From: Escherichia coli
Lineage (GTDB): Bacteria > Pseudomonadota > Gammaproteobacteria > Enterobacterales > Enterobacteriaceae
Length of the DNA stretch: 64,000 nucleotides
Strand: one strand, 5' to 3'
Assembly (NCBI RefSeq): GCF_050920415.1
Contig: NZ_CP169309.1
Shown: one piece after another, positions 1-47,522 of the stretch
Layout of the letters: each line of letters opens with the position of its first letter
Numbering within the stretch: position 1 is the first letter of the stretch
Notes under the pieces: model-generated
What the model saw: the letters and a program-made list of their open reading frames with translations, nothing else
Databases searched by the model: none
What the model was told of the DNA's origin: nothing
Position numbers and translations under genes: made by a program

Positions 1-377
1 GAGAAATCACGGGGCCGTGGCAGTCGCATCCCAAACGGATGTTACGTCATAAAGCCATGATTCAGTGTGCCCGTCTGGCCTTCGGATTTGCTGGTATCTA
101 TGACAAGGATGAAGCCGAGCGCATTGTCGAAAATACCGCATACACTGCAGAACGTCAGCCGGAACGCGACATCACTCCGGTTAACGATGAAACCATGCAG
201 GAGATTAACACTCTGCTGATTGCCCTGGATAAAACATGGGATGACGACTTATTGCCGCTCTGTTCCCAGATATTTCGCCGCGACATTCGCGCATCGTCAG
301 AACTGACACAGGCCGAAGCAGTGAAAGCTCTCGGATTCCTGAAACAGAAAGCCACTGAGCAGAAGGTGGCAGCATGA
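1..377 (+). CDS. bet: Bet-like single-strand annealing recombinase, C-terminal part (5' end lies outside the window)
   Basis: Frame is open from the window edge to the stop at 375-377; ATGA stop/start overlap with the downstream exo gene as in the lambda red operon; C-terminal sequence recognised from memory as lambda Bet-like. Confidence 0.6.
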
Positions 378-1054
378 CACCGGACATTATCCTGCAGCGT
401 ACCGGGATCGACGTGAGAGCTGTCGAACAGGGGGATGATGCATGGCACAAATTACGGCTCGGCGTCATCACCGCTTCAGAAGTTCACAACGTGATAGCAA
501 AGCCCCGCTCAGGAAAGAAGTGGCCTGACATGAAAATGTCCTACTTCCACACCCTGCTTGCCGAGGTTTGCACCGGTGTGGCTCCGGAAGTTAACGCTAA
601 AGCACTGGCCTGGGGAAAACAGTACGAGAACGACGCCAGAGCCCTGTTTGAGTTTACTTCCGGCGTGAATGTTACTGAATCCCCGATCATCTATCGCGAC
701 GAAAGTATGCGCACCGCCTGCTCTCCCGATGGTTTATGCAGTGACGGCAACGGCCTTGAACTGAAATGCCCGTTTACCTCCCGGGATTTCATGAAATTCC
801 GGCTCGGTGGTTTCGAGGCAATAAAATCGGCTTACATGGCCCAGGTGCAGTACAGCATGTGGGTGACGCGAAAAGATGCCTGGTACTTTGCCAACTATGA
901 CCCACGAATGAAGCGTGAAGGCCTGCATTATGTCGTGATTGAGCAGGATGAAAAGTACATGGCGAGTTTTGACGAGATGGTGCCGGAGTTCATCGAAAAA
1001 ATGGACGAGGCACTGGCTGAAATTGGTTTTGTATTTGGGGAGCAATGGCGATGA
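374..1054 (+). CDS. exo: Lambda-type 5'-3' exonuclease (YqaJ/lambda Exo family), 226 aa
   Basis: 226 aa ORF starting [40 protein letters not shown], recognised as near-identical to phage lambda Exo; position immediately after bet. Confidence 0.85.
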
Positions 1055-1233
1055 AGCATCCTCACGATAATATCCGGGTAGGCGCGATCACTTTCGTCTA
1101 CTCCGTTACAAAGCGAGGCTGGGTATTTCCCGGCCTTTCTGTTACCCGAAATCCCCTGAAAGCACAGCGGCTGGCTGAGGAGATAAATAATAAACGGGGA
1201 GCTGTATGCACAAAGCATCTCCTGTTGAGTTAA
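1045..1233 (+). CDS. Small lambdoid early-left protein (lambda Orf60a-like)
   Basis: 62 aa ORF overlapping the exo stop, same position as orf60a in lambda. Confidence 0.45.
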
Positions 1234-1397
1234 GAACGAGCATTGAGATGGCACATAGCCTCGCTCAAATTGGAGTCAGGTTTGTGCCAATACCAGTAGA
1301 AACAGACGAAGAATTTCATACGTTAGCCGCATCCCTTTCACAAAAGCTGGAAATGATGGTGGCGAAAGCAGAAGCAGATGAGAGAGACCAGGTATGA
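1206..1397 (+). CDS. Small lambdoid early-left protein (lambda Orf63-like)
   Basis: 63 aa ORF, same strand, positional equivalent in the lambda b-region. Confidence 0.4.
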   Translation: MHKASPVELRTSIEMAHSLAQIGVRFVPIPVETDEEFHTLAASLSQKLEMMVAKAEADERDQV

Positions 1398-1473
1398 CAA
1401 CCACTGAATGCATTTTTCTGGCAGCGGGCTTCATATTCTGTGTGCTTATGCTTGCCGACATGGGACTTGTTCA

Positions 1474-1689
1474 ATGACACATCAGCAAGAAAACGCCCTT
1501 CGCAGTATTGCCCGTCAGGCTAATTCTGAAATCAAAAAAGCCAGACAGCAGTTCCCGGATAAAAACGTCGATGATATTTGCCGTAGCGTACTGAAGAAGC
1601 ACCGCGAAACGGTAACGCTGATGGGATTCACACCGACTCATTTAAGCCTGGCGATCGGCATGTTAAACGGCGTCTTTAAGGAACGGTGA
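1474..1689 (+). CDS. Small lambdoid early-left protein (lambda Orf61-like)
   Basis: ORF 1408-1689; start placed at the internal Met (MTHQQENALRS...) by analogy with lambda. Confidence 0.4.
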   Translation: MTHQQENALRSIARQANSEIKKARQQFPDKNVDDICRSVLKKHRETVTLMGFTPTHLSLAIGMLNGVFKER

Positions 1690-1787
1690 GCATGAAAAAC
1701 AAAATCATCATGGAGCTACAGGCTCCTTTTTTATTATTCGCATTCACCCTCAAGCGTATTAACCAACAATTCAGGGATTAATGAAAG

Positions 1788-2006
1788 ATGGCAGACATCA
1801 TTGATTCAGCATCAGGAATTGAAGAATTACAGCGCAACACAGCAATAAAAATGCGCCGCCTGAACCACCAGGCTATATCTGCCACTCATTGTTGTGAGTG
1901 TGGCGATCCGATAGATGAACGAAGACGCCTGGCCGTTCAGGGTTGTCGGACTTGTGCAAGTTGCCAGGAGGAGATCGAACTTAAGAACAAACAATGGGGA
2001 CTGTGA
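1788..2006 (+). CDS. TraR/DksA-family C4 zinc-finger protein, phage-encoded
   Basis: 72 aa with CxxC(17)CxxC pattern (CCECGD...CRTCASC) typical of TraR/DksA-like proteins; good spacing from upstream genes. Confidence 0.6.
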   Translation: MADIIDSASGIEELQRNTAIKMRRLNHQAISATHCCECGDPIDERRRLAVQGCRTCASCQEEIELKNKQWGL

Positions 2007-2053
2007 TGGCCTCAAAGCAGCAAATTTCAACATCGTCCAACTGAGGTGTAAAA

Positions 2054-2332
2054 ATGTTCAGAATCATTTTTCCTAACACCTGGTACGTCGACCACCACGG
2101 CACTCCCTGCAAAATCCTGCGTTCTACCCACAACAAAGTTCACTACATCCGAAAAGGCAGAACATGTATCGCCAGCATGTTCCGCTTTAATCATGACTTT
2201 GAACCTGTGAATAAAGCTGATGCAGATCGGATAGCAGAAGAGATCGAAACGGCAGAACACATTAAGAAGTTACGTGACATGCGTTCAAAAAGCAGAGGTA
2301 ACCATGGAATCATACAGCCTCACACTCGATGA
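2054..2332 (+). CDS. Hypothetical prophage protein
   Basis: 92 aa ORF between the zinc-finger gene and xis; no recognisable motif. Confidence 0.3.
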   Translation: MFRIIFPNTWYVDHHGTPCKILRSTHNKVHYIRKGRTCIASMFRFNHDFEPVNKADADRIAEEIETAEHIKKLRDMRSKSRGNHGIIQPHTR

Positions 2333-2675
2333 GGCCTGTCAGTTTCTTAAGATATCCAGACCAACCGCCACCAACTGGATACGAACAGGCCGCCTACAGG
2401 CAACACGTAAAGATCCAACCAAGCCAAAATCTCCTTACCTCACAACACGGCAAGCCTGCATTGCGGCGCTTCAGTCTCCGCTGCATACTGTCCAGGTGAG
2501 CGCGGGTGATGGCATAACAGAGGAAAGAAAATGTCACTCTTCCGCAGAAATGAAATATGGTATGCCTCGTATTCGCTCCCGGGCGGGAAACGAATTAAGG
2601 AATCTCTTGGCACAAAGGACAAGCGGCAAGCTCAGGAGTTGCACGACAAGCGAAAAGCAGAACTCTGGCGAGTAG
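2304..2675 (+). CDS. xis: Putative excisionase (Xis); 3' end uncertain because the frame stays open into int
   Basis: Start ATG at 2304 preceded by GAGG; N-terminal 60 residues resemble a small DNA-binding excisionase; located directly upstream of and overlapping int as in lambdoid phages. Confidence 0.4.
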
Positions 2676-3694
2676 AAAAGCTAGGGGATTTACCTGATGT
2701 CACTTTTGAAGAGGCCTGCCTAAGATGGCTTGAGGAAAAAGCTGATAAAAAATCTCTCGATTCAGATAAAAGCCGGATTGAGTTCTGGCTTGAACATTTT
2801 GAGGGTATAAGGCTTAAAGATATCTCGGAGGCAAAGATTTACTCTGCTGTAAGCAGAATGCATAACAGAAAGACGAAAGAAATATGGAAACAGAAAGTTC
2901 AGGCCGCCATCAGGAAAGGTAAAGAACTGCCTGTTTATGAACCAAAGCCAGTATCAACTCAGACAAAGGCAAAGCATCTTGCCATGATAAAGGCCATTCT
3001 CCGTGCTGCAGAACGCGACTGGAAGTGGCTGGAAAAAGCGCCTGTCATCAAGATACCAGCGGTCAGAAACAAGCGAGTCAGATGGCTGGAAAAGGAGGAA
3101 GCAAAACGCCTTATTGATGAGTGCCCCGAACCACTGAAATCTGTCGTCAAGTTTGCGCTGGCAACTGGTCTGAGAAAGTCGAACATCATAAATCTGGAAT
3201 GGCAACAAATCGACATGCAGCGACGAGTTGCCTGGGTGAATCCAGAAGAGAGCAAATCAAACCGCGCCATTGGTGTGGCGCTAAACGATACCGCCTGTAA
3301 AGTGTTGCGTGATCAAATAGGCAAGCATCACAAATGGGTGTTTGTACATACCAAGGCGGCTAAGCGAGCAGATGGAACATCAACGCCTGCGGTCAGGAAG
3401 ATGCGCATCGACAGCAAGACATCATGGCTATCAGCTTGTCGTCGTGCAGGAATTGAAGATTTCCGTTTCCATGACCTCAGACACACCTGGGCAAGCTGGC
3501 TGATTCAGTCAGGCGTCCCATTATCAGTGCTTCAGGAAATGGGCGGATGGGAGTCCATAGAAATGGTTCGTAGGTATGCTCACCTTGCGCCTAATCATTT
3601 GACAGAGCATGCGAGGAAAATAGACGACATTTTTGGTGATAATGTCCCAAATATGTCCCACTCTGGAATTATGGAGGATATAAAGAAGGCGTAA
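2531..3694 (+). CDS. intD: Tyrosine site-specific integrase of an argU-integrating lambdoid prophage (DLP12 IntD type), 387 aa
   Basis: 387 aa; C-terminal catalytic region with [10 protein letters not shown] and RRYAHL motifs; ends 15 bp from the 3' end of tRNA-Arg. Confidence 0.9.
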
Positions 3695-3709
3695 CTGATT
3701 GAATTGTAA

Positions 3710-3786
3710 TGGCGCGCCCTGCAGGATTCGAACCTGCGGCCCACGACTTAGAAGGTCGTTGCTCTATCCAACTGAGCTAAGGGCGC
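3710..3786 (-). tRNA. argU: tRNA-Arg (anticodon UCU)
   Basis: 77 nt cloverleaf read on the minus strand: GCGCCCTTAGCTCAGTTGGATAGAGCAACGACCTTCTAAGTCGTGGGCCGCAGGTTCGAATCCTGCAGGGCGCGCCA; anticodon loop CT-TCT-AA; 3' CCA encoded. Confidence 0.9.
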
Positions 3787-16990: not shown

Positions 16991-17008
16991 CCTGGTGCTC
17001 AAATTCTT

Positions 17009-17206
17009 GCCGGATGCAGCGTGAACACCTTATCCGACCTACTAATCCGGTACCCATTGTAGGCCTGATAAGACGCGTCAAGCGTCGCATCAGGCATGGT
17101 GCGCCGATTACCGGATGCGGCGTGAACGCCTTATCCGACTACCAATCCGGTACCCATTGTAGGCCTGATAAGACGCGTCAAGCGTCGCATCAGGCATGGT
17201 GCGCCA
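17009..17206. repeat. Tandem REP/BIME-type intergenic repeats (two units of about 100 bp)
   Basis: Near-identical units containing gccggatgcggcgtgaacgccttatccg and taggcctgataagacgcgtcaagcgtcgcatcaggc, directly repeated. Confidence 0.7.
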
Positions 17207-17223
17207 TATGCTGGATGCTCCCA

Positions 17224-18120
17224 TCACGACAGCGAAATACAGGTCCCCGCTTCGCCCGCCAGCGTCTCTTCAATCCGCGATAAAGCCCCAATCCACGCAG
17301 GTTTACCACGGCTTCTGACATAGCCACTCACCGCCGTTACCTTCGGCCCCATCGCCCCATCGGCTTTGGCAAATGGCGCTAACTCATCCGGTGTGGCATG
17401 GCGAATGGCGCGTTGCTGCGGCGTTCCCCAGTTTTCATAAACCGCGTCAGCATCGGTGAGGATCACCAGTCCATCGGCATTAATCTGCTCGGCAAGCAAC
17501 GCCGCGGCGAGATCTTTATCAATCACCGCTTCACTCCCTGCTCCGTCATCCGTCACCGGAACACCGCCGCCGCCACTGCAAATCACCACATGCCCCTCTT
17601 TGAGCAACAACTCGATGGCTTCGCTGTCGAGAATTTTACGAGGCTGGGGAGATGCCACCACCCGGCGTAAATATTTGCCATCACGCTTCATTTTCCAGCC
17701 GTAAGCCGTTTCCAGTGCCTCTTGTTCTTCTGGCTGATAAACCGGGCCGATAAACTTCTCTGGCTGCAAAAACGCCGGATCATCAGACGAAACTTCAATG
17801 CGTGTCAGCACCGTCGTCACAGGCGGCATCTGCGGCTGTGCGCTCAAACTCTGCGCCAGCATATAGCCAATCATCCCCTGACTTTCCGCCACCAGCACAT
17901 CCAGTGGATACGGTTCGACCTCTTTCCACGCCAGATTCTGTAACGCCAACAACCCCACCTGCGGCCCGTTGCCGTGAACAATCGCCAGCCGATAAGCACG
18001 CGCCAGGCGCGCCAGCGCGGGAACAGCACTGGCAATATTGCGATATTGATTTTCTGCCGTCAGCGCCTCACCGCGCTGGAGTAAGGCATTGCCCCCAAGA
18101 GCTACAACCAGTGTTTTCAT
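17224..18120 (-). CDS. ybcF: Carbamate kinase-like protein
   Basis: 298 aa amino-acid-kinase family; N-terminal [13 protein letters not shown]. Confidence 0.85.
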
Positions 18121-18932
18121 GGTGTTCCTTGTAATAATTGTTGACCAAGCCAGAACCCCAGCAGCGTATCAGCCCCTGACGTATGCCCCAGCGCCAGCAG
18201 CGAATCAATCGCAACAGCGGTACGTTTCGGGCAACTCAGAGCATGAACAAAGTGCAGGAGTGGCGAGGCGAAGTATCCTTGCGCGGCATAACGTAAATAA
18301 TTAACGCTCACCGCTGTGGTAACGAGTTGAAGATTGTCGGAACAGGCAAAAAACGGGCGACCGGAGCGCGCATCTAAAGCGCCATAATACCAGGCTGCCA
18401 GCAGCATTCCCGTTAGCGTGTCATCATGACTCGGCGTTAATCCCGGCCCTTTACCCAGCCAGTGCCGCCAGTCGGTCTTAACGCCATTGAGCGCGGCCTG
18501 AAAACAGTGACGAAACTGGCGTAATTCAGCGGGAAGCGGATCGCCTGCCGCCAACGCCAGCGGCCCGAAAAGCCCGGTTTCCTCCGCGCGTTGCATCCAT
18601 GCCGCTGCAAGTGGTTGAGGATGCGCAGGCGGCGTAATACGCAGCAAACAATAACGCTGTGGCTGTTTAACCGTGAAACGCCCGAGGCGAATCCCTTGAG
18701 CCATAACCTGTGGTCGTTCATTGCCGCATAATCCACCGCATAACGCATCGAATTGCGCGCGGCGAAGCACCCATCCTCCGGGACCGAAACCACTTCCCTG
18801 ACGATGCAGCGTTAACAATTCACCGCTTTCCGTCATCAGGTTAATCGCCCGCCGCCACACGCCCGCTAACCGCCAGGACTGGCGATAATTCGGTGCACTA
18901 CGGCTGGCAAGCAGAGGATGGATGATCGTCAT
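18117..18932 (-). CDS. ylbF: DUF2877-family protein
   Basis: ORF 18117-19025; start at MTIIHPLL gives 271 aa and abuts ylbE without overlap. Confidence 0.7.
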
Positions 18933-18942
18933 TGCGCGTTCC

Positions 18943-20202
18943 TCAACCAATCCCCATGCTTTCAGCCAGAGCTTCCAGCGCCTGTTCAAAGCACGCCAGC
19001 GGTGCCCGCACAGTGCCTGCACCAATCTGCCCGATCCCCGCCTCTTTATGGGCGATACCCGTATTGATGAGTGGTGTAATGCCGGTTTCTACCACGCGAC
19101 GAATATCCAGCCCCAGGCACGCGCCCTGGAAATCCCAGCCAGGGATCTGCAACTGCATATTGCGCTCAAGGAAGATTTCTGCCATCTCTTCAGATACCGC
19201 TCTGGCTGCTTCCATGCCACCCGCACCGACAAAGCGCGTTACGCCAGGCGCTGCGATCATCGCGGCACCACCGATACCAAAGGTTTCGGTAATCGCGCTA
19301 TCGCCCATATCCGGGTTCGCCTGCTCCTGCGAGAAGCCGGTGAAAAACAGACCTTGCGGAGTGTTAACTGGCGCAGTAAACCAGCGCTCGCCCAGCCCGC
19401 TGACCCGAATCCCGAACATATTGCCGTTGCGGGTCATAGCCGTGACGATGCTGCCCGCGCGGATCATCGCGCCTGCATCCATCGCCGCCTTGCAATAGGC
19501 CATCGCGAGGTTGAGGAAGAACTGATCGGTCACGCTGAGGAAATCCATCACTTCCGCGATGTGCTGTTTATCGTGATTGAGGCGAGCAATTTGTGGGGCC
19601 AGCGCACGCATTAACAGTGCTGAGGAAGCAATATTGCGCTGATGGAATTCATCGCCCATCGTAATGCCCTGCGCCATCATCGCGGTGAGATCGATACCGC
19701 GCTCCATGCGCCCCAGCGCCGCGCTTAATACCGGCATTAACACATCACGCATCCAGCGATGGCGAGTCAGGACATCTTCGCCGTAAGCGCCAAAACGCAT
19801 CACTTTACCGATACCTTCATTGAGGTTGCAGTACGCCCGGTTACCGTCGGTCACGTTCTCGACCACCAGCATCGGCATACTGGCAGAAGTAATTCCGCCC
19901 ATTGGCCCGACGGCATTCACATGGTGACAAGGAATGAAGTTCACTTCCCCCTGCTCCAGCATCGCCAGTGCCTGCGCTTCATCTTTCGCCCAGCCTTCAA
20001 ACAGACACGCACCCACGCACGCCCCTTTCATGGGGCCGGTCATCTCCTGCCAGCGCATCGGCGGCCCGGCGTGAAGCAGTGTTTTACCCTGATTTAATTC
20101 ATTAATGAGTGAAGACGCCGGTTGCACATCCAGCCAGTGTGGACGAGCGCGACGAATTTGTTCGATAACCGCAGCATTGGCTTGCGCCACTGATGTAAAC
20201 AT
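18943..20202 (-). CDS. ylbE: DUF1116-family protein, intact 419 aa
   Basis: Single uninterrupted 419 aa ORF between fdrA and ylbF. Confidence 0.8.
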
Positions 20203-20211
20203 GGGAACCCC

Positions 20212-21879
20212 TTATTGCAAACATTCTAATAAACGAGCCAGTTTTTTATTGCCGCCAGCGACTGGTGACCATTGGTAATGCACAACCGGTTTGCTGGCGC
20301 TTTGTAGTTCCAGCGCAAAGCTGCGTAATCCGATGTTAATCACGGCGACGTTTTCCAGTAATGACGGTGTGTGTGGCTGTGTGGCAGGCGAGAGCGGATG
20401 AATTAACGCCGCCGCCAGCAAGGTGGCTTCCGGCAGCGAACTCACTACCGCGATCCCTGCATCTTCCAGCGTGGCGATTTGTTGCGAGCGGCATTGCGGG
20501 TCACGTTCAGTGCCTGTCACCGTGGCAATGGCATACAGTGGTTGATTGTCTGGACGCGCGGCACAGGCTTTTTGCCAGGCGCTTACCAGCGAGGCTGCAG
20601 GATCGGTGGTCGCACCGAAGCCAATCACCACATCAAGCAGCAATACGCGCACTTGCGGTTTAGCGCCGAGATCGGCAATTAACTGGTTGCGTAAGGTTGG
20701 GTCGATCATCGGATGGGGACGCCCGACGGTGTAAAAATCATCGCCGAGGTCAATAATCTGGTGACCATCGGCGTCGAGCATCATGCCGTGATGATGGGTA
20801 TCGTCGGCTACCACGCCAAGATGCGCGGCAAGTAATCCCGCCGCTTCGGCGGCTAACGTACCGCCGGTATACAAGCCGCAAATAAGTCCGCTGCTGACAG
20901 GTGCTATTGCGTTACGTCGCGCCGTAACGCGTGAAAGCAGGCAAGCCAGGCGTGCAGCCTCATCCAGCGAGGAGGCAAACCAGACATTCTCGTCGCGGGC
21001 CACCGCCGGGATATAACCTAAAAACAGCGCCACCGTTGGTTTGCCGGTTGCTTTCATGGCATTAACAATTTTCAGACGCACAGCTTCGGCAGGCGGTTTT
21101 GAAACAAACGCCAGCACTTCGCTTTTCTCATCTACACTGAGCATTTCCAGCGCCGTTAGCGCACTGATGCCGCCCACGTCACGGCTGAGGTCGCGCCCGC
21201 CAAGACCAATCGCGTGAGTAATTCCCTCACCTGCCAGTGCAATCTGCGAACACAGTTCCTGAATCCCGGTACCGGAAGCGCCAATGACGCCAATGTTGCC
21301 TTCCGGCATCACGTTAGCAAAAGCCAGCGGCGTGGCGGCAATCATCGATGTACCGCAGTCCGGCCCCATCACCAGCAAACCTTTTTCCCGCGCGTGGGTT
21401 TTAAGTTGGATTTCATCTTCCAGCGTGACGTTATCGGAGAACATCATCACGTTGAGGTTGCGATCCAGCGCCTGGTTCGCCAGTTCCGCCGCATACTCGC
21501 CAGCCACTGAAATCAGCGCCAGATTGGCATTGGGTAATTTCTGACAGGCACTGTCCCAGCGACGCACCAGCGTCAACGCCTGGCTGCTGCCCGTTCCCTG
21601 CGCCAGTTGCTTTAGCGCCTCTTCAAGCTGCTGCATAATCGCCTGCGCGATCCCCGCATCCGCCGCTTCGCTACGAATTGCCACGCAAATATCGTTCGGC
21701 GTGGCGTTATTAAAATCGTCATGCCAGAAACCTGTGGTATCTAATAACGCTTTATTGGCGGGCGTACCCATCATTACGGAAACATCATCAACATTTTCTG
21801 ATTCGCTGAGTTTTCGTGAAATAATCATTAAACTGACCGAATCCTGAAAACACCCTTTTTTAATAAAGGCGTGGATCAT
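20212..21879 (-). CDS. fdrA: FdrA (succinyl-CoA synthetase alpha-like CoA-binding protein)
   Basis: 555 aa, recognised FdrA sequence. Confidence 0.85.
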   Translation of the reverse strand: MIHAFIKKGCFQDSVSLMIISRKLSESENVDDVSVMMGTPANKALLDTTGFWHDDFNNATPNDICVAIRSEAADAGIAQAIMQQLEEALKQLAQGTGSSQALTLVRRWDSACQKLPNANLALISVAGEYAAELANQALDRNLNVMMFSDNVTLEDEIQLKTHAREKGLLVMGPDCGTSMIAATPLAFANVMPEGNIGVIGASGTGIQELCSQIALAGEGITHAIGLGGRDLSRDVGGISALTALEMLSVDEKSEVLAFVSKPPAEAVRLKIVNAMKATGKPTVALFLGYIPAVARDENVWFASSLDEAARLACLLSRVTARRNAIAPVSSGLICGLYTGGTLAAEAAGLLAAHLGVVADDTHHHGMMLDADGHQIIDLGDDFYTVGRPHPMIDPTLRNQLIADLGAKPQVRVLLLDVVIGFGATTDPAASLVSAWQKACAARPDNQPLYAIATVTGTERDPQCRSQQIATLEDAGIAVVSSLPEATLLAAALIHPLSPATQPHTPSLLENVAVINIGLRSFALELQSASKPVVHYQWSPVAGGNKKLARLLECLQ

Positions 21880-22195
21880 AACAACTCCTTAAAAATTGCA
21901 CCCATGGCAATTGCACGAGCAGTGTTAATGTGGCGATTACGGTATCGATGGATGGTGACAAATAAGGTGATGAATATCACACGGAGATTATTAGCAAAAG
22001 AATTCAAATAACCGCCAGACTATTACGCGTTATTTTTTAATAAGCATAGTTGTTTTAAAAACCAGGTTAAAAGCGAGCGGATTATCAAATAAATTCTAAC
22101 TATATTTTTTTGCCTGTCTGGATCACATAATCCAGATATTTTCCCTGTATGTTAATTGCAGTCATGCTTCACACCGTCGTTAAAAAGGAAGACAG

Positions 22196-23245
22196 ATGAA
22201 AATCAGTCGGGAAACACTCCACCAGCTAATCGAGAATAAACTCTGCCAGGCTGGGTTAAAACGTGAGCACGCTGCAACCGTGGCTGAAGTATTGGTTTAC
22301 GCCGATGCCAGAGGGATCCACTCTCATGGCGCGGTGCGCGTTGAATACTACGCAGAGCGCATATAAAAAGGCGGCACCAACCGCGAACCAGAGTTTCGTC
22401 TTGAAGAAACCGGACCGTGCTCGGCAATTTTACATGCCGACAATGCCGCCGGACAGGTCGCGGCAAAAATGGGTATGGAACATGCCATCAAAACCGCCCA
22501 GCAAAAAGGCGTTGCGGTGGTCGGTATCAGCCGGATGGGTCACAGCGGCGCAATCTCTTATTTTGTGCAGCAGGCAGCCCGCGCCGGATTGATTGGCATT
22601 TCGATGTGCCAGTCCGATCCAATGGTGGTGCCGTTTGGCGGCGCGGAAATTTACTACGGCACTAACCCACTGGCCTTTGCCGCGCCGGGAGAAGGCGACG
22701 AGATTCTTACTTTTGATATGGCGACTACCGTACAGGCGTGGGGGAAAGTTCTCGATGCACGCTCGCGCAATATGTCTATCCCGGATACTTGGGCGGTCGA
22801 TAAAAACGGTGCACCAACAACCGATCCCTTCGCGGTTAACGCCCTGCTCCCGGCTGCCGGACCGAAAGGTTATGGCCTGATGATGATGATCGACGTCCTC
22901 TCAGGCGTCTTACTCGGCTTACCGTTCGGGCGTCAGGTCAGTTCGATGTATGACGATTTACACGCCGGACGTAATTTGGGGCAATTACATGTAGTTATTA
23001 ATCCGAACTTTTTCTCCTCCAGCGAATTATTCCGTCAACATCTTAGCCAGACCATGCGCGAATTAAATGCCATTACCCCCGCGCCCGGTTTTAACCAGGT
23101 TTATTATCCCGGACAGGATCAGGATATTAAACAACACAAAACCGCCGTCGAAGGTATCGAAATTGTTGATGATATTTACCAGTATTTAATTTCCGACGCG
23201 CTTTATAACACGTCATACGAAACGAAAAATCCCTTTGCGCAATAA
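22196..23245 (+). pseudogene. allD: Ureidoglycolate dehydrogenase gene interrupted by an in-frame TAA at codon 57 (22364-22366)
   Basis: ATG at 22196 with AAGGAA RBS; MKISRETLHQLIENKLCQAGLKREHAATVAEVLVYADARGIHSHGAVRVEYYAERI then TAA; the same frame continues KGGTNREPEF... through the 258 aa ORF 22469-23245. Confidence 0.8.
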
Positions 23246-23266: not shown

Positions 23267-24502
23267 ATGATTACACATTTCCGTCAAGCCATAGAAGAAA
23301 CGCTGCCCTGGCTTTCCTCTTTTGGCGCTGACCCAACGGGTGGAATGACCCGTTTACTTTATTCGCCGGAGTGGCTGGAAACCCAGCAGCAATTTAAAAA
23401 AAGAATGGCAGCAAGTGGGCTGGAAACACGTTTCGATGAAGTGGGGAATTTATACGGCCGCCTGAACGGCAGCGAATACCCCCAGGAAGTGATTCTGAGC
23501 GGTTCGCATATTGATACCGTGGTTAACGGCGGTAACCTCGACGGACAATTCGGCGCACTGGCGGCGTGGCTGGCGATTGACTGGCTGAAAACGCAATACG
23601 GCGCGCCGCTGCGAACGGTCGAAGTGGTGGCAATGGCGGAAGAAGAAGGCAGCCGCTTCCCGTATGTCTTCTGGGGCAGTAAAAATATCTTTGGGCTGGC
23701 GAATCCTGACGACGTGCGGAATATCTGTGATGCCAAAGGAAATAGTTTTGTCGATGCAATGAAGGCTTGCGGATTTACTCTGCCGAACGCCCCACTAACT
23801 CCGCGTCAGGATATTAAAGCCTTTGTCGAACTGCATATCGAACAGGGCTGTGTGCTGGAAAGTAATGGGCAGTCAATTGGCGTGGTGAATGCAATTGTCG
23901 GGCAACGTCGCTATACGGTGACGCTGAACGGCGAATCAAACCATGCAGGCACCACGCCGATGGGTTATCGTCGTGATACGGTTTACGCTTTCAGTCGCAT
24001 TTGCCATCAGTCAGTTGAGAAAGCGAAAAAGATGGGCGATCCGCTGGTGCTGACCTTTGGCAAGGTGGAGCCGCGCCCGAATACGGTGAATGTAGTGCCG
24101 GGTAAAACCACGTTCACCATTGATTGTCGTCATACCGACACTGCCATGTTGCGCGATTTTACCCAACAGTTAGAAAACGACATGCGGGCGATTTGCGATG
24201 AAATGGACATTGGTATTGATATCGATTTATGGATGGACGAAGAACCCGTGCCGATGAACAAGGAGCTTGTCGCCACCCTGACAGAATTGTGTGAAAGCGA
24301 AAAACTGAATTATCGGGTAATGCACAGTGGTGCCGGGCACGACGCACAAATTTTCGCGCCTCGCGTGCCGACCTGCATAATTTTCATTCCCAGCATCAAC
24401 GGGATCAGCCATAACCCGGCGGAACGCACCAATATTACCGACCTTGCCGAAGGGGTCAAAACGTTGGCACTCATGCTTTATCAACTTGCCTGGCAGAAAT
24501 AA
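23267..24502 (+). CDS. allC: Allantoate amidohydrolase
   Basis: ORF 23246-24502; start at MITHFRQAIE; M20 peptidase-family sequence. Confidence 0.9.
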   Translation: MITHFRQAIEETLPWLSSFGADPTGGMTRLLYSPEWLETQQQFKKRMAASGLETRFDEVGNLYGRLNGSEYPQEVILSGSHIDTVVNGGNLDGQFGALAAWLAIDWLKTQYGAPLRTVEVVAMAEEEGSRFPYVFWGSKNIFGLANPDDVRNICDAKGNSFVDAMKACGFTLPNAPLTPRQDIKAFVELHIEQGCVLESNGQSIGVVNAIVGQRRYTVTLNGESNHAGTTPMGYRRDTVYAFSRICHQSVEKAKKMGDPLVLTFGKVEPRPNTVNVVPGKTTFTIDCRHTDTAMLRDFTQQLENDMRAICDEMDIGIDIDLWMDEEPVPMNKELVATLTELCESEKLNYRVMHSGAGHDAQIFAPRVPTCIIFIPSINGISHNPAERTNITDLAEGVKTLALMLYQLAWQK

Positions 24503-24512
24503 GGAGTTATAA

Positions 24513-25298
24513 ATGGGATATTTAAATAACGTCACCGGTTACCGCGATGATTTACTGGCTAACCGTGCGATTGTTAAACACGGTAATTTCGCGCTGCTAA
24601 CCCCGGACGGTCTGGTAAAAAATATTATTCCGGGCTTTGAAAATTGTGACGCGACAATCCTCTCCACGCCAAAGCTGGGGGCCTCTTTTGTTGATTATCT
24701 GGTCACACTGCATCAAAACGGCGGCAACCAACAGGGCTTCGGTGGTGAAGGAATTGAAACGTTCCTGTATGTGATTTCTGGAAATATCACTGCCAAAGCC
24801 GAAGGGAAAACATTTACCTTAAGCGAAGGTGGCTATCTTTATTGCCCGCCGGGTTCCTTAATGACGTTTGTTAATGCTCAGGCCGAAGACAGCCAAATAT
24901 TCTTGTATAAGCGCCGCTATGTTCCGGTAGAAGGCCATGCGCCGTGGCTGGTTTCTGGCAATGCCAGCGAACTGGAACGCATTCACTATGAAGGTATGGA
25001 CGATGTGATCTTGCTGGACTTCCTGCCCAAAGAGTTAGGTTTTGATATGAACATGCATATCCTCTCTTTTGCGCCAGGTGCCAGCCACGGTTATATCGAA
25101 ACTCACGTCCAGGAACACGGTGCCTATATTCTTTCCGGTCAGGGGGTTTATAACCTCGACAATAACTGGATCCCGGTGAAAAAAGGCGATTACATCTTTA
25201 TGGGCGCTTATTCCTTACAGGCCGGTTATGGCGTAGGGCGTGGTGAAGCGTTTAGTTATATTTATTCGAAGGATTGTAACCGCGACGTTGAGATTTAA
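24513..25298 (+). CDS. allE: (S)-ureidoglycine aminohydrolase (bicupin)
   Basis: 261 aa cupin protein downstream of allC. Confidence 0.85.
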   Translation: MGYLNNVTGYRDDLLANRAIVKHGNFALLTPDGLVKNIIPGFENCDATILSTPKLGASFVDYLVTLHQNGGNQQGFGGEGIETFLYVISGNITAKAEGKTFTLSEGGYLYCPPGSLMTFVNAQAEDSQIFLYKRRYVPVEGHAPWLVSGNASELERIHYEGMDDVILLDFLPKELGFDMNMHILSFAPGASHGYIETHVQEHGAYILSGQGVYNLDNNWIPVKKGDYIFMGAYSLQAGYGVGRGEAFSYIYSKDCNRDVEI

Positions 25299-25340: not shown

Positions 25341-25367
25341 GCCACGGTTTATACCGTGGCTTTTTTT
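25341..25367 (+). terminator. Rho-independent terminator after allE
   Basis: Hairpin gccacggtttataccgtggc followed by T7. Confidence 0.6.
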
Positions 25368-35529: not shown

Positions 35530-36012
35530 TCACGCAAAACAGAGTTCCTGTTCAGGAATACTTTCAACATCACAGTTGTCACTGCCGCCGCGATCGATGG
35601 TCAGAAAATCGGTGACGCGCTGCCAGGCGAAAAGTGGGTGATGCCAGACGTTACGATGGTAATTCACTCCCTGTTCACCGTTGGTAATAAACGCCCGCAG
35701 GGTTGACAGGTCTGGTTTGTCGTCACCTAACGCCACGACCACCACAAACACTTCCCCTTTCATCGGAATAAAGGCCTGAGTGCCCAGCGGATGACGTTCG
35801 AGTTCGTGAATGGTCAGCGGCAGATTCGCCGGTTGCGCGCGGTTAATGCTGATAAGCGTACGGTCTTGCTCAAGAATCTCAACCAGCGCCAAATCGTGGT
35901 AACGCTCCACCAGGCCATTGTTAATATGGAAAAAATCCCGTTGCTGCGTTTCGATTACGTCGCCATAAGCACTAAAGGCTTCCTGACTTAACGGTAATAC
36001 CTGAAGTTTCAT
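35530..36012 (-). CDS. allA: Ureidoglycolate lyase
   Basis: 160 aa. Confidence 0.9.
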
Positions 36013-39342: not shown

Positions 39343-40268
39343 ACTTTCATATCATTTACTCCAATTCAGTTATTCGCCTCTGTACAAAAGCACACACAGA
39401 TTTTGAATTAATGGCGTACAAAAACATAATCGGATGAAAATACCACACCGGAATATTACTGATATAGCGGGATCTTACTCATTCGCTAGACTGAAAATGC
39501 AATTGAACAGAAATTTCTTACTAGTGTTTTTATCAGATGATCGGAAAGGAAATCAACTCACTGGCAAGTATCATAAGCTCAAATTGGCATATTGTATATT
39601 CCCATAAATACTTTTATTTTTTGATTAACATACTCAATACTACACATCACTAATTGAGAGAAGATTAACTTCATCATCTTTGATTAGGTACGTTTTTTAA
39701 TTTTCAATGACGCATCATAAAAAAGGGCTTACCAAGTTTAACACTAATAACAGGATATAAAGAAAACATATTGCTATATGAATCCTTTGGCGATGTTTTG
39801 GTTATGGTAATCTTTCCTTCTTTCAAGTGCTCTGCTATTATATGAAATTGAATCGGTCTTGTTGCATCACTTACCCGCAATGGATTACCAGCGTAAGCTT
39901 CATATCCTCCACCATTATTCATATGTAAAATAGTGTATTCGTCATTTAAAAATGACTGCTTACTATCGTAGACTTGGTAGTATATATTACTTATATCAAG
40001 ATAAATTACTATAGAGATATACTTAATTTTTCATTTAGCATTAATGATGTATCCATGGAATCTATACATCTTTCAATATCAGTTATTTTTTCTTCTATAT
40101 ACGTAGCATAATTTTTTGGCACTGGCGTGTTTAGCCCTCATATACCCTCATTAACTAAGACACCATTTTGCTTGCTTTTTACATTGTAATAAAGACAATC
40201 AATATTGAATTTATTATTTTTATATTTCAGTGTTGTATATACAGTAAAATCATGCAGCGAACGCCCAT

Positions 40269-40854: not shown

Positions 40855-41826
40855 CTAATATTTATATTCCTCCCACTGAGCACCGTATCGATGCTTTAAC
40901 AGTTTAACTTTAATTTCATCATATGTTTTAACTTTACTACCATCAATCTTAAGGCGAATTTTATTCGAGGTGATATCAACATAATTTCTATTTTCCCCAC
41001 CCGCAGGGAAAAAATCAAACATAAAATTAGACATGTTTTGTTCTTTTTTCATGAGAGCTCCATACTCACACATGTCATTTATATTTTGTATGTATGGAGT
41101 GCCCCCCTGACATGATGGATAATGAAAATCAATTATAGTAAAAAGCGATTTATTGACACTCCTCTGAAAGAACCACTTATTATTTACAATACGATAGGTT
41201 AAAGATTTAAATGTATACCAGTGACTTCCTGGAAGAAAAGAGTAAGCTTCATTAAGATTGACAGTAAATACCTTAGTTTCTCCAGAGGAAAGCTTTACCC
41301 ATTCTGATTTTATATCACAATTATCGCCCATACCAAAATAAAGCTCATCATTGGCATCATCCTCAACAAAATCACATATATTGGTTGCGGAAGGACGGAA
41401 TTTCAGATAGAAACCACTTGTGGATATTAAAAAAGAATCCTCACATAAAGGAGAAAAAAAATAAGGCTCCGATGTGTGTGAGGAGATAGGTAATAATCGT
41501 CTATGAATGAAATTTTCGCTACCCCCCAAATTTGTAAAACTTATTTTTGCTAACACACGAGAGTCAATTTGCTTAACGGTTAATCTAACATCAACATCAA
41601 ACATATTACGATTTGGCAATTTTTCCTCGACTCCGTCAGTGTAATGTGATAACTCAAGTATATTGTCCTCAAGAGTCATCGAATTTAATTTTTGTTCGGA
41701 AACATATTGTGCAATAACCTCATCATTGCAGTATCCATGAAATGAAATAAACATTAGCACTGCAATCTTAACTAATCTCAAAATACTTTTCAATATTGTA
41801 TGCATTATTAAAAACCAGCGGGTCAT
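40855..41826 (-). CDS. Putative immunity protein 2 (exported), paralogue of the 43491-44312 gene
   Basis: 323 aa; N-terminal hydrophobic signal-like segment; conserved segments shared with 43491-44312 (FTN...S, FxPG..Y, F.KS..Y+.VN+KWF); directly downstream of the HExxH gene. Confidence 0.6.
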   Translation of the reverse strand: MTRWFLIMHTILKSILRLVKIAVLMFISFHGYCNDEVIAQYVSEQKLNSMTLEDNILELSHYTDGVEEKLPNRNMFDVDVRLTVKQIDSRVLAKISFTNLGGSENFIHRRLLPISSHTSEPYFFSPLCEDSFLISTSGFYLKFRPSATNICDFVEDDANDELYFGMGDNCDIKSEWVKLSSGETKVFTVNLNEAYSFLPGSHWYTFKSLTYRIVNNKWFFQRSVNKSLFTIIDFHYPSCQGGTPYIQNINDMCEYGALMKKEQNMSNFMFDFFPAGGENRNYVDITSNKIRLKIDGSKVKTYDEIKVKLLKHRYGAQWEEYKY

Positions 41827-42582
41827 GTTTTGATTTTAATTCTTTTGCATTGGCAATTTCTCTTTTTTTTCCCAAATCGTTACTGCTTAATCCACCATAA
41901 TACTGTTCTCCATCCCAGATAATAAAAAGGTGAGATAACTCATGGCATAATGTGGAGACTCGAGAGTTTTCTCCCGTTGGATTTTTACATGTGAAATTTT
42001 GTAAGATATCTATAGATATTCTTTCTCGATACTCTAACTTTAAAAGTTCAGCCTTCGACTTATTTTTATACTCACTACTTTGGTATTGGGGCCGATTTAG
42101 ATCTATATGAGTCGTCTGAGCAGCCGGTATACGGGCTGAACCATTGACTAAATTGGTATAATTTTTAAAATTGCCATATATTAGTTGTACATTATCTTGC
42201 GTTCGAGTTTCAATGATCAAGCTATCACAAATCATGATCATTCTGTAAACCCCCTCTTTTATAAAAGTATGTGCGTCAATATTCTTGGTTTGTGGAGTGA
42301 AGTTCCCATTATTATCTGACTTTTGACAAGGAGCATAGTGTTCCATTGTTATAATAGCATCACCTGGTAATCCAAATATATCTTCAAAATTTTTCTGATC
42401 TGCTGGTGTCCATGCTTCCAGATTTTTGCTCTGATATTCAATACTCGCTTTGTTTCTTCCAAAGCAGGCGTTATCATGTTGTAAAATTGATCAGTAACCT
42501 TTGCTTCTTTTTTACATATATTGCCTTTTTGAGTTACCCCTTGTGAACTTCCTTTGTTATTATTCATAAACACCTCCCTCAA
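41768..42582 (-). pseudogene. HExxH-motif putative type VI effector, copy 2, disrupted by a -1 frameshift in an A5 run
   Basis: Two ORFs (42349-42582 and 41768-42346) in different frames both align to the intact paralogue at 44336-45127; HELSH at 41930-41944; frames switch at the T5/A5 run 42423-42427. Confidence 0.7.
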
Positions 42583-42975
42583 TCATATCTATACTTTGAT
42601 GCAATAGCCTGACTTTTATCGTCAGCTCACTGTCAGTGATAAATATTTCCGTATACCCATCCTTATCCGTTTCCCCTCGCGCTTGTGTGCCGTCCTCAAA
42701 AAAGGCAATGTAGCGTGTTTCTGAATACGGTATCCCGTCATCGTCTGTAAAATGAAACTGGAGGGTGTATTTCTCAGGTTCATCCTTATCTTCATTGTCG
42801 TTCCCAGAATCATTTCCATCGCCACCACCGACCCCGCCATTGCCTTGCCCGCCCTCTGCACCACCATCTTTATCACTACCTTCATCCGTCAGTGCCTCCA
42901 GCACGCCCGGTTGCAGTGTCGGTACCGGAGTCCCCGGACTACCCCCACCATTCAGATTTATCTTCGGCCCCCAGG
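42560..42975 (-). pseudogene. Orphan 3' fragment of a vgrG gene (last 140 codons or so)
   Basis: Translation GPKINLNGGGSPGTPVPTLQP...DEPEKYTLQFHFTDDDGIPYSETRYIAFFEDGTQ matches the C-terminal region of the full vgrG at 45117-47522; DNA 42897-42970 matches 45463-45536; no upstream vgrG body. Confidence 0.75.
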
Positions 42976-45127: not shown

Positions 45128-47522
45128 AGTGTCCTTCCATTGAGAGAAAATCATCATTCGCAAATAGCAACTTCACTTTAATTTCATGTTTGCTAGATAC
45201 AAAAAAACGCTCTGTATACCCCTCTTCATCCGTTTCTCCGCGGGTCTGCGTGCCATCCTCAAAGAAGGCAATGTAGCGGGTTTCTGAATACGGTATCCCG
45301 TCATCGTCTGTAAAATGGAACTGGAGAGTATATTTTTCAGGTTCATCCTCATCGTCACCTCGATCATCACCACCACTTCCGGTCACGCAGTTCCCTCCAG
45401 AGTTTTCATTTTCTTCTCCGGAATCACTGCCATCACCACTCTTCTCATCCCCCAGTGTCTTCAGCACCGCCGGTTGCAGCGTCGGTACAGGCGTCCCCGG
45501 ACTGCCTCCCCCGTTCAGATTTATCTTCGGCCCCACTATATCCACGCCCCCTGAATGGATGACCACAAACGAGCCACCCAACTTCAGGCTTATCCGGCTG
45601 CTGCTCTCCAGCACGATATCCCCGTCCACCTTTATCCCCAGCGCACCACTCACCTTCCTCGCCAGGTCGCCTTTCACCTCCAGGCTGTGTTTTCCCTCCA
45701 CCAGGCTGATGTGGTTTCCTGTCGTTTTGTGCTCCTGCTTCCCTTCCACCGTCACCTTTCGGTCGTTTCTGACGTACAGACCGTCATCGTGGCTGACGTT
45801 CACCCGCCGGTCGTTCGTCACCTTCAGCGTCTGGTCGTTGCGCACCGTGATGCTCCGGTCATGGGCCACCGTGATACTCTGGTCGTGGCCCCCTTCTTTT
45901 CTGGTGCCGACCTCAACCGTCTGCCCCTTCACCACCCTTATCTTCTGGTCGTTACCGATGGTCTCCGTATGGTCATGCTTCACGTCCGTCGTCCGGTCGT
46001 TAAGCACCTCCGTGTCCATGTTCTTCTGCGCGTGGATATACACCTGCTCACTGTCCGTCGCATCCTCGAAACGCAGTTCATTAAAGCCGCTTCCTTTATA
46101 GGTCTTCGAGCGGATGGTCATCTGCGTCCGCGTGCCCGGTAAATCCCCCGGTGAACGGTTATCTTCATGGTAGGTCCGCCCCGTCACAATGGGCTGGTCC
46201 GGGTCTCCGTTCAGAAAGTCCACTATCACTTCCTGACCCACACGCGGTATCGCCAGATTGCCGAACCCCGGTCCCGCCCATGCCTGCGACACCCGTATCC
46301 AGCATGAACTCTCCTCCGTCATCCCGTGATAACGGTCCCAGTGAAACTTCACCCGTACCCGGCCATGCTCGTCGCAGAATATCTCCTCGCCCTTCGGCCC
46401 GGTCACGATGGCACTCTGCGGGCCGTCCACCTTCGGCTTCGGCAGCGGCGCGTGACGCCACGTCCTGTCTGCCGGTATCACCTCAAACTGGTTACTCAGC
46501 GTCGTCCCTTCACCGTGACTGCCGTGCAGCGCCTGCGGCTGTTCTCCCCGCAGTGTGCTTCCCACAACCTGCCATTCCCGGTTCAGCGTATCCGACGGGT
46601 GACCCGACAGGGTAAACCGCGTTCCCGGCCACAGCCGCGCCGTGTTACACACCCCGCTCGCCGTCTCCGCCCCGTTCCGCCACCCTTCCGTCTGGTAACG
46701 CGCAAAATCCTGGCCATGCTGCTCATCCTTGAAACGCCCCGGATAATCAAATATCTCGTACTGCGTTCCCTGCCCGTTCAGGCTCTCCCCGTCATGGCTG
46801 TAGTACCCCGGCCACCCCGGCACTTTAAACGTATAATCCTGCGTCTCCACCGACGCCACGCTTATCTGCGCACGGTAACGAAACTCACTGATGTACTCCG
46901 TCGTTCCCCCGGTCGTCGTGTTCGGGTTAAACGCCAGCGCCCCCATTCCCGTCAGCCCCGCCACGTCATCACACACCGCCAGCTTCTGTTCCGGCCCGTC
47001 CTGACTGCAGCGTTCATAAAAGAAGATACCTTCCTCCGCCCACAGCCGGGTCAGGAACGCCAGGTCGCTCTCCCCGTACTGCACGCAGAACTCCCGCGCC
47101 GGATGGTCTTCATAAAACAGCGGCATCCACGCCGTCACCCCGTTCTCTCTCAGAAGCTGTGCTGATATCGTCCCGATGTCCTGCTGCTGGAAGATACGGA
47201 AGTTCTGCCGTAACCCTGCCCGCCACAGCGGCGGGCTGATGCTCAGGGAATAACGCATCTGCCAGTCGTTGTTCTCACCGAGCTGCACCTCCGTCACGAT
47301 ACCGCTGACGTAACGCTGTGCAGTGTCGCCCTGCCAGACCGTCAGCACCGCGCTTTTCTCCAGAAAATCCTCCGCCGTCAGGTCGGACAGCCCGCTGGCG
47401 ATATCCACATCCAGGATGAACGGTGTGCAGTGGTGCTGGTACAGACGGAAGCTCACCACCGCCGTCGCCATCTCCACGATGTCGTCCACCGACAGCGTGA
47501 AACGTAATCCTTCTGAGGACAT
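45117..47522 (-). CDS. vgrG: Type VI secretion spike protein VgrG with acidic Gly/Asp-rich linker and C-terminal extension domain
   Basis: 801 aa from MSSEGLRFTLSVDD; gp27-like N-terminal region, gp5-like repeats (VKHDHTETIGNDQKIRV...), then GGGSPGTPVPT, acidic linker and a C-terminal domain of about 60 aa. Confidence 0.9.
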   Translation of the reverse strand: MSSEGLRFTLSVDDIVEMATAVVSFRLYQHHCTPFILDVDIASGLSDLTAEDFLEKSAVLTVWQGDTAQRYVSGIVTEVQLGENNDWQMRYSLSISPPLWRAGLRQNFRIFQQQDIGTISAQLLRENGVTAWMPLFYEDHPAREFCVQYGESDLAFLTRLWAEEGIFFYERCSQDGPEQKLAVCDDVAGLTGMGALAFNPNTTTGGTTEYISEFRYRAQISVASVETQDYTFKVPGWPGYYSHDGESLNGQGTQYEIFDYPGRFKDEQHGQDFARYQTEGWRNGAETASGVCNTARLWPGTRFTLSGHPSDTLNREWQVVGSTLRGEQPQALHGSHGEGTTLSNQFEVIPADRTWRHAPLPKPKVDGPQSAIVTGPKGEEIFCDEHGRVRVKFHWDRYHGMTEESSCWIRVSQAWAGPGFGNLAIPRVGQEVIVDFLNGDPDQPIVTGRTYHEDNRSPGDLPGTRTQMTIRSKTYKGSGFNELRFEDATDSEQVYIHAQKNMDTEVLNDRTTDVKHDHTETIGNDQKIRVVKGQTVEVGTRKEGGHDQSITVAHDRSITVRNDQTLKVTNDRRVNVSHDDGLYVRNDRKVTVEGKQEHKTTGNHISLVEGKHSLEVKGDLARKVSGALGIKVDGDIVLESSSRISLKLGGSFVVIHSGGVDIVGPKINLNGGGSPGTPVPTLQPAVLKTLGDEKSGDGSDSGEENENSGGNCVTGSGGDDRGDDEDEPEKYTLQFHFTDDDGIPYSETRYIAFFEDGTQTRGETDEEGYTERFFVSSKHEIKVKLLFANDDFLSMEGHYGR

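What the first reader, a model, noticed from the sequence alone, without database searches (positions are those of the whole stretch)
22196..22468. In-frame TAA nonsense codon at codon 57 of allD
The allD frame begins at ATG 22196 with a good RBS and reads 56 codons before TAA at 22364-22366. The same frame then continues without further interruption for 293 codons to the normal stop at 23243-23245. One substitution therefore truncates ureidoglycolate dehydrogenase, while allC and allE downstream are intact. If real, this strain would lack the AllD branch that converts ureidoglycolate to oxalurate in anaerobic allantoin use, and may show polarity on allC. TAA cannot encode selenocysteine.
Basis: seen in the sequence. 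Interest (0 to 1): 0.55.

Follow-up and report, generated by a model that had tools for sequence, protein, structure and literature searches.

The report
Inherited nonsense mutation inactivating allD
A single C-to-A change turns serine codon 57 of the allantoin-pathway gene allD into a stop codon; it is a real, clonally inherited pseudogene already flagged in public annotation, so it is an ordinary finding.

Summary
The allD frame (22196-23245) carries TAA at 22364-22366. Every close relative examined has TCA (Ser57) there, so the lesion is one C-to-A transversion at 22365.

It is not a sequencing error:
- The identical allele is in RefSeq NZ_CP169399.1, a different isolate, where PGAP marks allD as a pseudogene with an internal stop.
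- It is also in GCA_001650555.1, E. coli M863 (Escherichia cryptic clade I), strain 1.2741 and two DDBJ genomes.
- The 56-aa stop fragment is on 73 contigs. This haplotype's exact allC and allF alleles are on about 90. The intact Ser57 protein is on 4-8.
- Two intact-allele contigs differ from the window only at 22365 (1 base in 8,171 bp and in 2,133 bp), so the pseudogene is young.

Neither product can be active. The essential residues Arg48 and His116 fall on separate fragments (1-56 and a possible Met92 restart). The oxamate branch should therefore be blocked, while allC, allE, allA and allFGHK stay intact. Polarity on allC/allE is plausible but untested.

The same mutation arose independently on a phylogroup-A haplotype, and many other allD lesions exist in nature. 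Recurrent allD loss is already documented (Shigella). Interest is low.

The parts
22196..23245 (+). allD pseudogene (ureidoglycolate dehydrogenase frame, 349 codons plus stop, interrupted at codon 57)
   Evidence: Translation. PDB 4fjs match at E=1e-232. Pfam Ldh_2 over residues 3-331. PGAP 'internal stop' pseudogene in the identical allele of NZ_CP169399.1.
22364..22366 (+). Premature TAA stop at codon 57. The mutated base is 22365 (ancestral C, TCA = Ser).
   Evidence: TCA in L002-L004. L009 and L010 differ from the window only at 22365.
22186..22191 (+). Shine-Dalgarno-like AGGAAG upstream of the allD ATG
   Evidence: Read directly from the sequence.
22196..22366 (+). Residual 56-aa N-terminal ORF. 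It holds Ser43, His44, Arg48 and Tyr52 but nothing else of the enzyme.
   Evidence: The exact peptide P0031 is on 73 contigs. Residue roles from PMC3527362.
22469..23245 (+). Residual 258-aa ORF from Met92, the first in-frame start after the stop (102 nt downstream). It lacks Ser43, His44, Arg48 and Tyr52.
   Evidence: The exact protein P0016 is on 39 contigs, including M863 and 1.2741. It scores 483 bits, below the TIGR03175 cut-off of 496.
23267..24502 (+). allC (allantoate deiminase), intact, downstream in the same operon
   Evidence: The exact protein P0046 is on 90 contigs.
24513..25298 (+). allE ((S)-ureidoglycine aminohydrolase), intact, last gene of the operon
25341..25360 (+). Terminator-like hairpin followed by a T-run after allE, the likely end of the allDCE operon
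   Evidence: consensus scan only.
17224..21879 (-). allF (fdrA) 20212-21879, allG (ylbE) 18943-20202, allH (ylbF) 18117-18932 and allK (ybcF) 17224-18120. These encode oxamic transcarbamylase and carbamate kinase. All are intact, but they lose their substrate supply if AllD is null.
   Evidence: Annotation. Function from PMC11326118. The exact AllF protein is on 89 contigs.
35530..36012 (-). allA (ureidoglycolate lyase), intact. This is the alternative branch expected to take the ureidoglycolate flux.
   Evidence: Annotation. Pathway from PMC12535856.
36241..37167 (+). allS, the intact activator of the allD and allF promoters
   Evidence: Annotation. PMC12535856.

Best explanation
A genuine, vertically inherited nonsense mutation makes allD a young pseudogene. 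The change is Ser57 TCA to TAA, from one C-to-A transversion at window 22365.

Translation from the normal start ends after 56 residues. The only possible second product starts at Met92. The active site needs Arg48 (with His44, Ser43 and Tyr52) and also His116, Ser140, Asp141 and Arg259 in one chain, so neither fragment can oxidise ureidoglycolate.

Inferred consequence: the oxamate branch is closed at its first step. That branch runs ureidoglycolate to oxalurate, then to oxamate plus carbamoyl phosphate, then to ATP plus NH3. The intact AllFGH and AllK enzymes receive no substrate. Ureidoglycolate is diverted through the intact AllA to glyoxylate plus urea. This costs part of the nitrogen and the ATP yield of anaerobic allantoin use.

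The allele is carried by most sampled members of one clone that shares this haplotype with the cryptic clade I strain M863. Drift or hitch-hiking is the simplest reason for its spread.

What is shown: the mutation, its ancestry, its presence in independent assemblies, and the separation of the catalytic residues. What is inferred: the loss of activity in vivo, the rerouting of flux, and any polarity on allC/allE.
For: The lesion:
- TAA in frame.
- TCA in the closest complete genomes.
- Two contigs differ from the window only at 22365, over 8,171 bp and 2,133 bp.

Independent carriers:
- NZ_CP169399.1 is a different isolate. Against the window it shows 4 isolated SNPs, 1 indel, a 26-substitution patch, an IS2 insertion and a prophage difference. 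PGAP marks its allD 'internal stop'.
- GCA_001650555.1 is 100% identical over 8,171 bp.
- The exact fragments are recorded from M863, 1.2741, BDI35118/9 and BDI45040/1.

Assembly quality: no gene in the 64 kb is marked as frameshifted in the sister record, so the assembly is not noisy.

Frequencies: 73 contigs with the 56-aa fragment, 90 and 89 with the haplotype's exact allC and allF proteins, and 4-8 with the intact protein.

Catalytic residues: Arg48 and His116 are essential, His44 stacks on the nicotinamide ring, and the functional unit is a dimer (PMC3527362).

Pathway: wild type converts 17.7 of 19.5 mM allantoin to oxamate. Mutants blocked downstream divert the flux to the glyoxylate side (PMC11326118; PMC12535856).
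Against: - There is no expression, enzyme or growth data for any carrier.
- A low level of ochre read-through or a suppressor tRNA elsewhere in the genome cannot be excluded from a 64 kb window. The only tRNA in it is tRNA-Arg(TCT).
- The rest of the oxamate branch is fully intact. That fits a very recent loss, but it would also fit residual function.
- Contig counts are not a clean sample of independent isolates. The same sample can appear in NCBI, ENA and Logan.
Confidence: 0.9

Rival explanations
1. Loss of allD is adaptive. The stop allele rose in this clone because closing the oxamate branch is beneficial, for example by sending ureidoglycolate carbon to glyoxylate/glycerate and avoiding dead-end oxamate. 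allD would then be a recurrent target of selected inactivation. The molecular event is the same as in the best explanation. Only the evolutionary cause differs.
For: - The identical TCA-to-TAA change arose on an unrelated phylogroup-A haplotype. L008 is 99.9% identical to ATCC 8739 and HS. It has different synonymous bases 2, 8 and 11 nt upstream and 25 nt downstream of the mutated base.
- Other natural lesions exist: C75*, S76*, L79*, +A190, delT199, delC215 and a 20-bp insertion.
- IS1A is inserted in allD in three complete genomes.
- 99 of 5,426 complete genomes have no allD match.
- allD is listed among functions specifically absent in Shigella (PMC2617782) and is missing from a Salmonella Montevideo clade (PMC13269107).
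- The stop allele is the majority within its haplotype.
Against: - allD has 125 possible single-base nonsense changes, and an enormous number of genomes was searched. One coincidence is expected without selection.
- My sample of lesions was ascertained through the 258-aa ORF, so it only sees hits upstream of Met92.
- Some Logan or metagenome lesions are probably assembly errors. L013 also has allC and allE called in two pieces each and a shortened glxK call.
- About 98% of complete E. coli genomes keep a full-length match.
- The clone is so young (4 isolated SNPs in about 59 kb between two carriers) that hitch-hiking explains the frequency.
Confidence: 0.15
2. Sequencing or assembly error: the true genome has TCA at codon 57.
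For: The change lies next to a short A-run (TCAAAA to TAAAAA), and no reads were available to me.
Against: - It is a substitution, not a homopolymer-length error.
- The same base is present in assemblies made by different groups and years: M863, 1.2741, GCA_001650555.1, two DDBJ genomes and MFDS1022581.
- Sister contigs with C also exist.
- No annotated gene in the 64 kb is marked as frameshifted in the sister record.
Confidence: 0.02
3. The gene still yields active enzyme. This could happen through ochre read-through or suppression, or through a Met92-initiated fragment that works alone or together with the 56-aa peptide.
For: - An in-frame ATG at 22469 has a weak purine-rich stretch upstream (GGACAGG). 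It opens a 258-aa ORF that still scores 528 bits against NF011599.
- All other pathway genes remain intact.
Against: - Residues 57-91 would be missing from both pieces.
- Arg48 is essential, and the S43A substitution reduces kcat/Km from 54.3 to 0.13 mM-1 s-1 (about 400-fold). His44 and Tyr52 lie in the same hydrogen-bond network (PMC3527362). These residues are absent from the Met92 product.
- The 258-aa piece falls below the TIGR03175 cut-off (483 against 496).
- TAA is not a known recoding signal, and the stop is absent from all other backgrounds examined except L008.
- No suppressor tRNA lies in the window.
Confidence: 0.03

Closest known systems
E. coli AllD, (S)-ureidoglycolate dehydrogenase (PDB 4FJS/4FJU/4H8A/1XRH; TIGR03175; Pfam Ldh_2)
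   Same: With codon 57 restored, the protein aligns end to end with 7 differences in 349 residues. It sits in the canonical allD-allC-allE operon, divergent from allFGHK.
   Different: The window's copy has a stop at codon 57. No single product contains both Arg48 and His116.
PGAP-annotated allD pseudogene ACE00D_RS18080 of E. coli MFDS1022581 (NZ_CP169399.1)
   Same: The allD allele is identical, and the surrounding 35.9 kb (window 3708-39599) differs by a single SNP.
   Different: It is a different isolate. The window carries a lambdoid prophage end at argU that the record lacks. It lacks the record's IS2 insertion. It also differs by a few SNPs.
Recurrent loss of allD and allantoin genes in host-restricted enterobacteria (Shigella, Touchon et al. 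2009; Salmonella Montevideo clade 10)
   Same: The same pathway step is lost in natural lineages.
   Different: Here the loss is a single very recent point mutation, with all 16 other ALL-cluster genes intact. It is not part of a broad deletion or multi-gene decay.
Other natural allD null alleles in E. coli (C75*, S76*, L79*, frameshifts, IS1A insertions)
   Same: They interrupt the same gene in the same region and leave the same 258-aa Met92 ORF.
   Different: They are different lesions on different haplotypes. Only L008 shares the exact S57* change, and it acquired it independently.

Membership tests
AllD ureidoglycolate dehydrogenase (TIGR03175 / NF011599 equivalogs) | Full-length protein scoring above the curated equivalog cut-off | tested here: not met
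   The ancestral (Ser57) sequence scores 656 bits against a cut-off of 496. The actual products score 91 bits (56 aa) and 483 bits (258 aa), both below the TIGR03175 cut-off. The 258-aa piece does pass NF011599 (528 against 356). So this is AllD by descent but not an intact member.
AllD ureidoglycolate dehydrogenase (TIGR03175 / NF011599 equivalogs) | Arg48 and His116, with His44, Ser140, Asp141 and Arg259, present in one polypeptide | tested here: not met
   The stop at codon 57 separates residues 43-52 from residues 116-259. Residue roles come from PMC3527362.
AllD ureidoglycolate dehydrogenase (TIGR03175 / NF011599 equivalogs) | Genomic context: first gene of allD-allC-allE, divergent from allFGHK, within the ALL cluster | tested here: met
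   Operon description in PMC12535856.
Pseudogene by nonsense mutation | In-frame stop inside a frame that is otherwise conserved full-length | tested here: met
Pseudogene by nonsense mutation | Sense codon at that position in the closest relatives, so the stop is derived | tested here: met
   TCA in L002-L004 and in L009-L021. The exact 61-mer with TAA is in 1 of 5,426 complete genomes.
Pseudogene by nonsense mutation | Not an assembly artefact: reproduced in independent assemblies | tested here: met
Pseudogene by nonsense mutation | Loss of enzyme activity or phenotype | not testable with these tools
   This needs an enzyme assay, or an anaerobic allantoin growth and oxamate measurement.
Programmed recoding (selenocysteine or conserved read-through stop) | UGA codon with a SECIS element, or a stop conserved across orthologues | tested here: not met
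   The codon is TAA. Orthologues carry TCA.

The most novel reading that the evidence does not exclude
allD is a recurrent target of selected inactivation in Escherichia. On this reading, the S57* allele swept through a cryptic clade I clone because closing the oxamate branch of anaerobic allantoin catabolism is advantageous in its niche. The same nucleotide change on a phylogroup-A background would be a convergent hit.
Probability: 0.12. Interest if true: 0.35.

Novelty: already known. Interest (0 to 1): 0.12.

Why it matters
The finding matters little beyond strain bookkeeping. It predicts that this clone makes no oxamate from allantoin and gains less nitrogen and ATP from it under anaerobiosis. 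If polarity is strong, the clone may use allantoin poorly altogether.

It does provide a natural isogenic pair: Ser57 and stop strains that differ by one base in 8 kb. That pair could be used to measure the in vivo contribution of the AllD branch. It could also test Rho polarity on allC/allE. The finding adds one more case to the known pattern of allantoin-pathway decay in enterobacterial lineages.

Tried and rejected
- Assumed the 100% BLAST hit (NZ_CP169399.1) was the source of the window. Rejected: the concatenated record is not collinear with the window. This turned the hit into an independent confirmation.
- Sequencing error. Rejected on multi-assembly evidence.
- Selenocysteine or recoding. 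Rejected: TAA, not conserved.
- Suppressor tRNA nearby. None found, only tRNA-Arg(TCT).
- Import of the stop into L008 by recombination. Unlikely, because the differing synonymous sites leave at most about 26 bp of shared sequence around the base.
- Mutational hotspot or selection inferred from the homoplasy. Not supported statistically, given 125 possible nonsense changes and the biased way lesions were found.
- Internal promoter that would protect allC from polarity. No + strand promoter-like site inside allD, and the number of sites in the region equals the shuffle expectation.
- A composition scan for rut-like sequence found a C>G stretch at 22965-23095. This is suggestive only.
- Literature search for 'M863' with 'cryptic clade' found nothing. 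A second wording found the clade I assignment.

Full report
**Observation**

The window has ATG at 22196, preceded by AGGAAG at 22186-22191. Fifty-six sense codons follow, then TAA at 22364-22366. The same frame continues for 292 sense codons to the stop at 23243-23245.

With codon 57 restored, the protein aligns end to end with solved E. coli AllD (4fjs/4fju, E=1e-232, 7 differences in 349 residues). It covers Pfam Ldh_2 over residues 3-331. It exceeds both NCBIfam AllD equivalog cut-offs.

**Ancestral state**

The three closest complete genomes (RMDEC465, N96, EC42405) are 98.0-98.8% identical over 1.2 kb. All read TCA (Ser) at codon 57.

Two contigs are more telling. L009 is a Logan assembly of ERR10017571, and L010 is an ENA metagenome contig. 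They differ from the window at exactly one position, 22365 (C instead of A), over 8,171 bp and 2,133 bp respectively. The lesion is therefore a single C-to-A transversion. The pseudogene is young: no second lesion has accumulated.

**Is it real?**

- A 1.2 kb query found one 100% match among 5,426 complete E. coli genomes. It is NZ_CP169399.1, strain MFDS1022581, from animal-source food in Korea. PGAP already marks its allD as a pseudogene with an 'internal stop'.
- I first took that record for the source, but it is not. The window's first 3,707 bases are a lambdoid prophage end, where the record has nfrA-ybcH-envY.
- The record also has an IS2 insertion that the window lacks.
- The two further differ by 4 isolated SNPs, one 1-bp indel and a 26-substitution patch in vgrG. 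The record is thus a second, independent isolate with the same stop.
- Exact-sequence look-ups found the 56-aa N-terminal peptide on 73 contigs and the 258-aa Met92 ORF on 39.
- GenBank entries for these come from E. coli M863, 1.2741 and two DDBJ genomes. Their accession numbers run consecutively across allC, the two allD pieces and fdrA.
- GCA_001650555.1 is 100% identical over 8,171 bp.
- No gene in the sister record's annotation of this 64 kb is marked as frameshifted.

Sequencing error is excluded for practical purposes.

**Population status**

The haplotype's exact AllC and AllF proteins are on 90 and 89 contigs. The intact Ser57 AllD is on 4 contigs (8 were read). Most sampled members of this clone therefore carry the stop.

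M863 is the reference strain of Escherichia cryptic clade I (PMC4182557). The window's cysS is at least 99% identical to only 2 of 5,424 complete E. coli genomes. That fits a rare, divergent lineage. The clade assignment of the window itself rests on this shared haplotype and was not tested by phylogeny.

**Consequence for the protein**

Kim et al. 2012 (PMC3527362) show the following:
- AllD works as a dimer.
- Arg48 and His116 are essential.
- His44 stacks on the nicotinamide ring.
- Ser43, Tyr52, Ser140, Asp141, Met251 and Arg259 complete the site.

The 56-aa product keeps only residues 43-52. The first in-frame start after the stop is ATG 22469 (Met92), 102 nt downstream with a poor Shine-Dalgarno sequence. 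Its product would lack residues 43-52, and residues 57-91 would be absent from both pieces. I infer a null allele.

**Consequence for the pathway (inference from the literature)**

- AllD opens the oxamate branch.
- Wild-type cells convert 17.7 of 19.5 mM allantoin to oxamate. Mutants blocked further down divert the flux to the glyoxylate side (PMC11326118; PMC12535856).
- In this window allS, allA, allR, gcl, hyi, glxR, allW, allB, ybbY, glxK, allE, allC, allF, allG, allH and allK are all intact.
- The expected phenotype is no oxamate, no ATP from carbamoyl phosphate, and ureidoglycolate going through AllA to glyoxylate plus urea.
- allC and allE lie downstream of allD in the AllS-dependent operon, so 900 nt of untranslated mRNA could expose them to Rho polarity.
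- I found a C-rich, G-poor stretch at 22965-23095. There is no + strand promoter-like site inside allD. Neither result settles the question.

**Recurrence**

L008 (GCA_965254525.1) has the same TAA at codon 57 on a haplotype with 40 differences in 1,050 bp. These include synonymous differences 2, 8 and 11 bases upstream and 25 bases downstream of the mutated base. Its background is the common phylogroup-A allele, 99.9% identical to ATCC 8739 and HS. This is an independent occurrence.

Other 258-aa ORF variants led to further lesions: C75* (TGA), S76* (TAG), L79* (TGA), +A190, delT199, delC215 and a 20-bp insertion. Three complete genomes have IS1A in allD, and 99 of 5,426 lack the gene.

allD has 125 possible single-base nonsense changes, and the collection is huge. 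My ascertainment only sees lesions upstream of Met92, and some Logan assemblies are visibly noisy (L013). One coincidence is therefore expected without invoking a hotspot or selection. Loss of allD is documented in Shigella (PMC2617782) and in a Salmonella Montevideo clade (PMC13269107).

**Verdict**

The feature is an ordinary, recent, clonally inherited nonsense pseudogene that public annotation already flags.

The only mildly interesting angles are the natural one-base isogenic pair and the possibility of recurrent selected loss. I rate that possibility at about 0.12-0.15.

Noticed in passing
window 1-3707 and tRNA-Arg(TCT) at 3710-3786: The left end of the window is the end of a lambdoid prophage (intD integrase, exo, bet, TraR/DksA-like) abutting tRNA-Arg(TCT). 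It is 100% identical to prophages in several unrelated E. coli. The sister strain MFDS1022581 lacks it and has nfrA-ybcH-envY there instead.
   Followed up: partly
window ~39594-39599: MFDS1022581 carries an IS2 insertion here, downstream of mnmH (about 1.3 kb of extra sequence). The window has the empty site.
   Followed up: partly
window 42428 (ORF 41768-42346, minus strand): The window lacks one C after a T5 run relative to MFDS1022581. This cuts a hypothetical gene of the vgrG-linked island from 266 aa to a 192-aa ORF. It is either a second strain-specific frameshift or a homopolymer-adjacent sequencing error.
   Followed up: partly
window 45669-45864: 26 substitutions are clustered in about 200 bp near the 3' end of tssI/vgrG. 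The flanking tens of kilobases differ from MFDS1022581 by only 4 SNPs. This looks like a gene-conversion patch from another vgrG copy.
   Followed up: no
window 42648-42971 and 45211-45534: Two segments of about 330 bp are 77% identical. One lies in the vgrG C-terminal region. The other lies downstream, next to an ISAs1 transposase remnant, and may be an orphan vgrG fragment.
   Followed up: no
window 17007-17218: An imperfect tandem repeat of about 101-111 bp (92% identity) lies in the purK-allK (ybcF) intergenic region.
   Followed up: no
L008 5072-6262 (GCA_965254525.1): The independent phylogroup-A carrier of S57* also has a shortened allC (396 aa against 411, an in-frame loss of about 45 bp). 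This hints at further decay of the operon in that strain.
   Followed up: no
H66-H68 (NZ_CP023377.1, NZ_CP147125.1, NZ_CP116976.1) and L004 1114-2780: Three complete E. coli genomes have IS1A inserted in allD. Strain EC42405 has a frameshifted fdrA (allF). The oxamate branch is broken in several different ways in nature.
   Followed up: no
window 18943-20202: ylbE (allG) is an intact 419-aa gene here. If so, the laboratory reference would be defective in a different step of the same branch.
   Followed up: no
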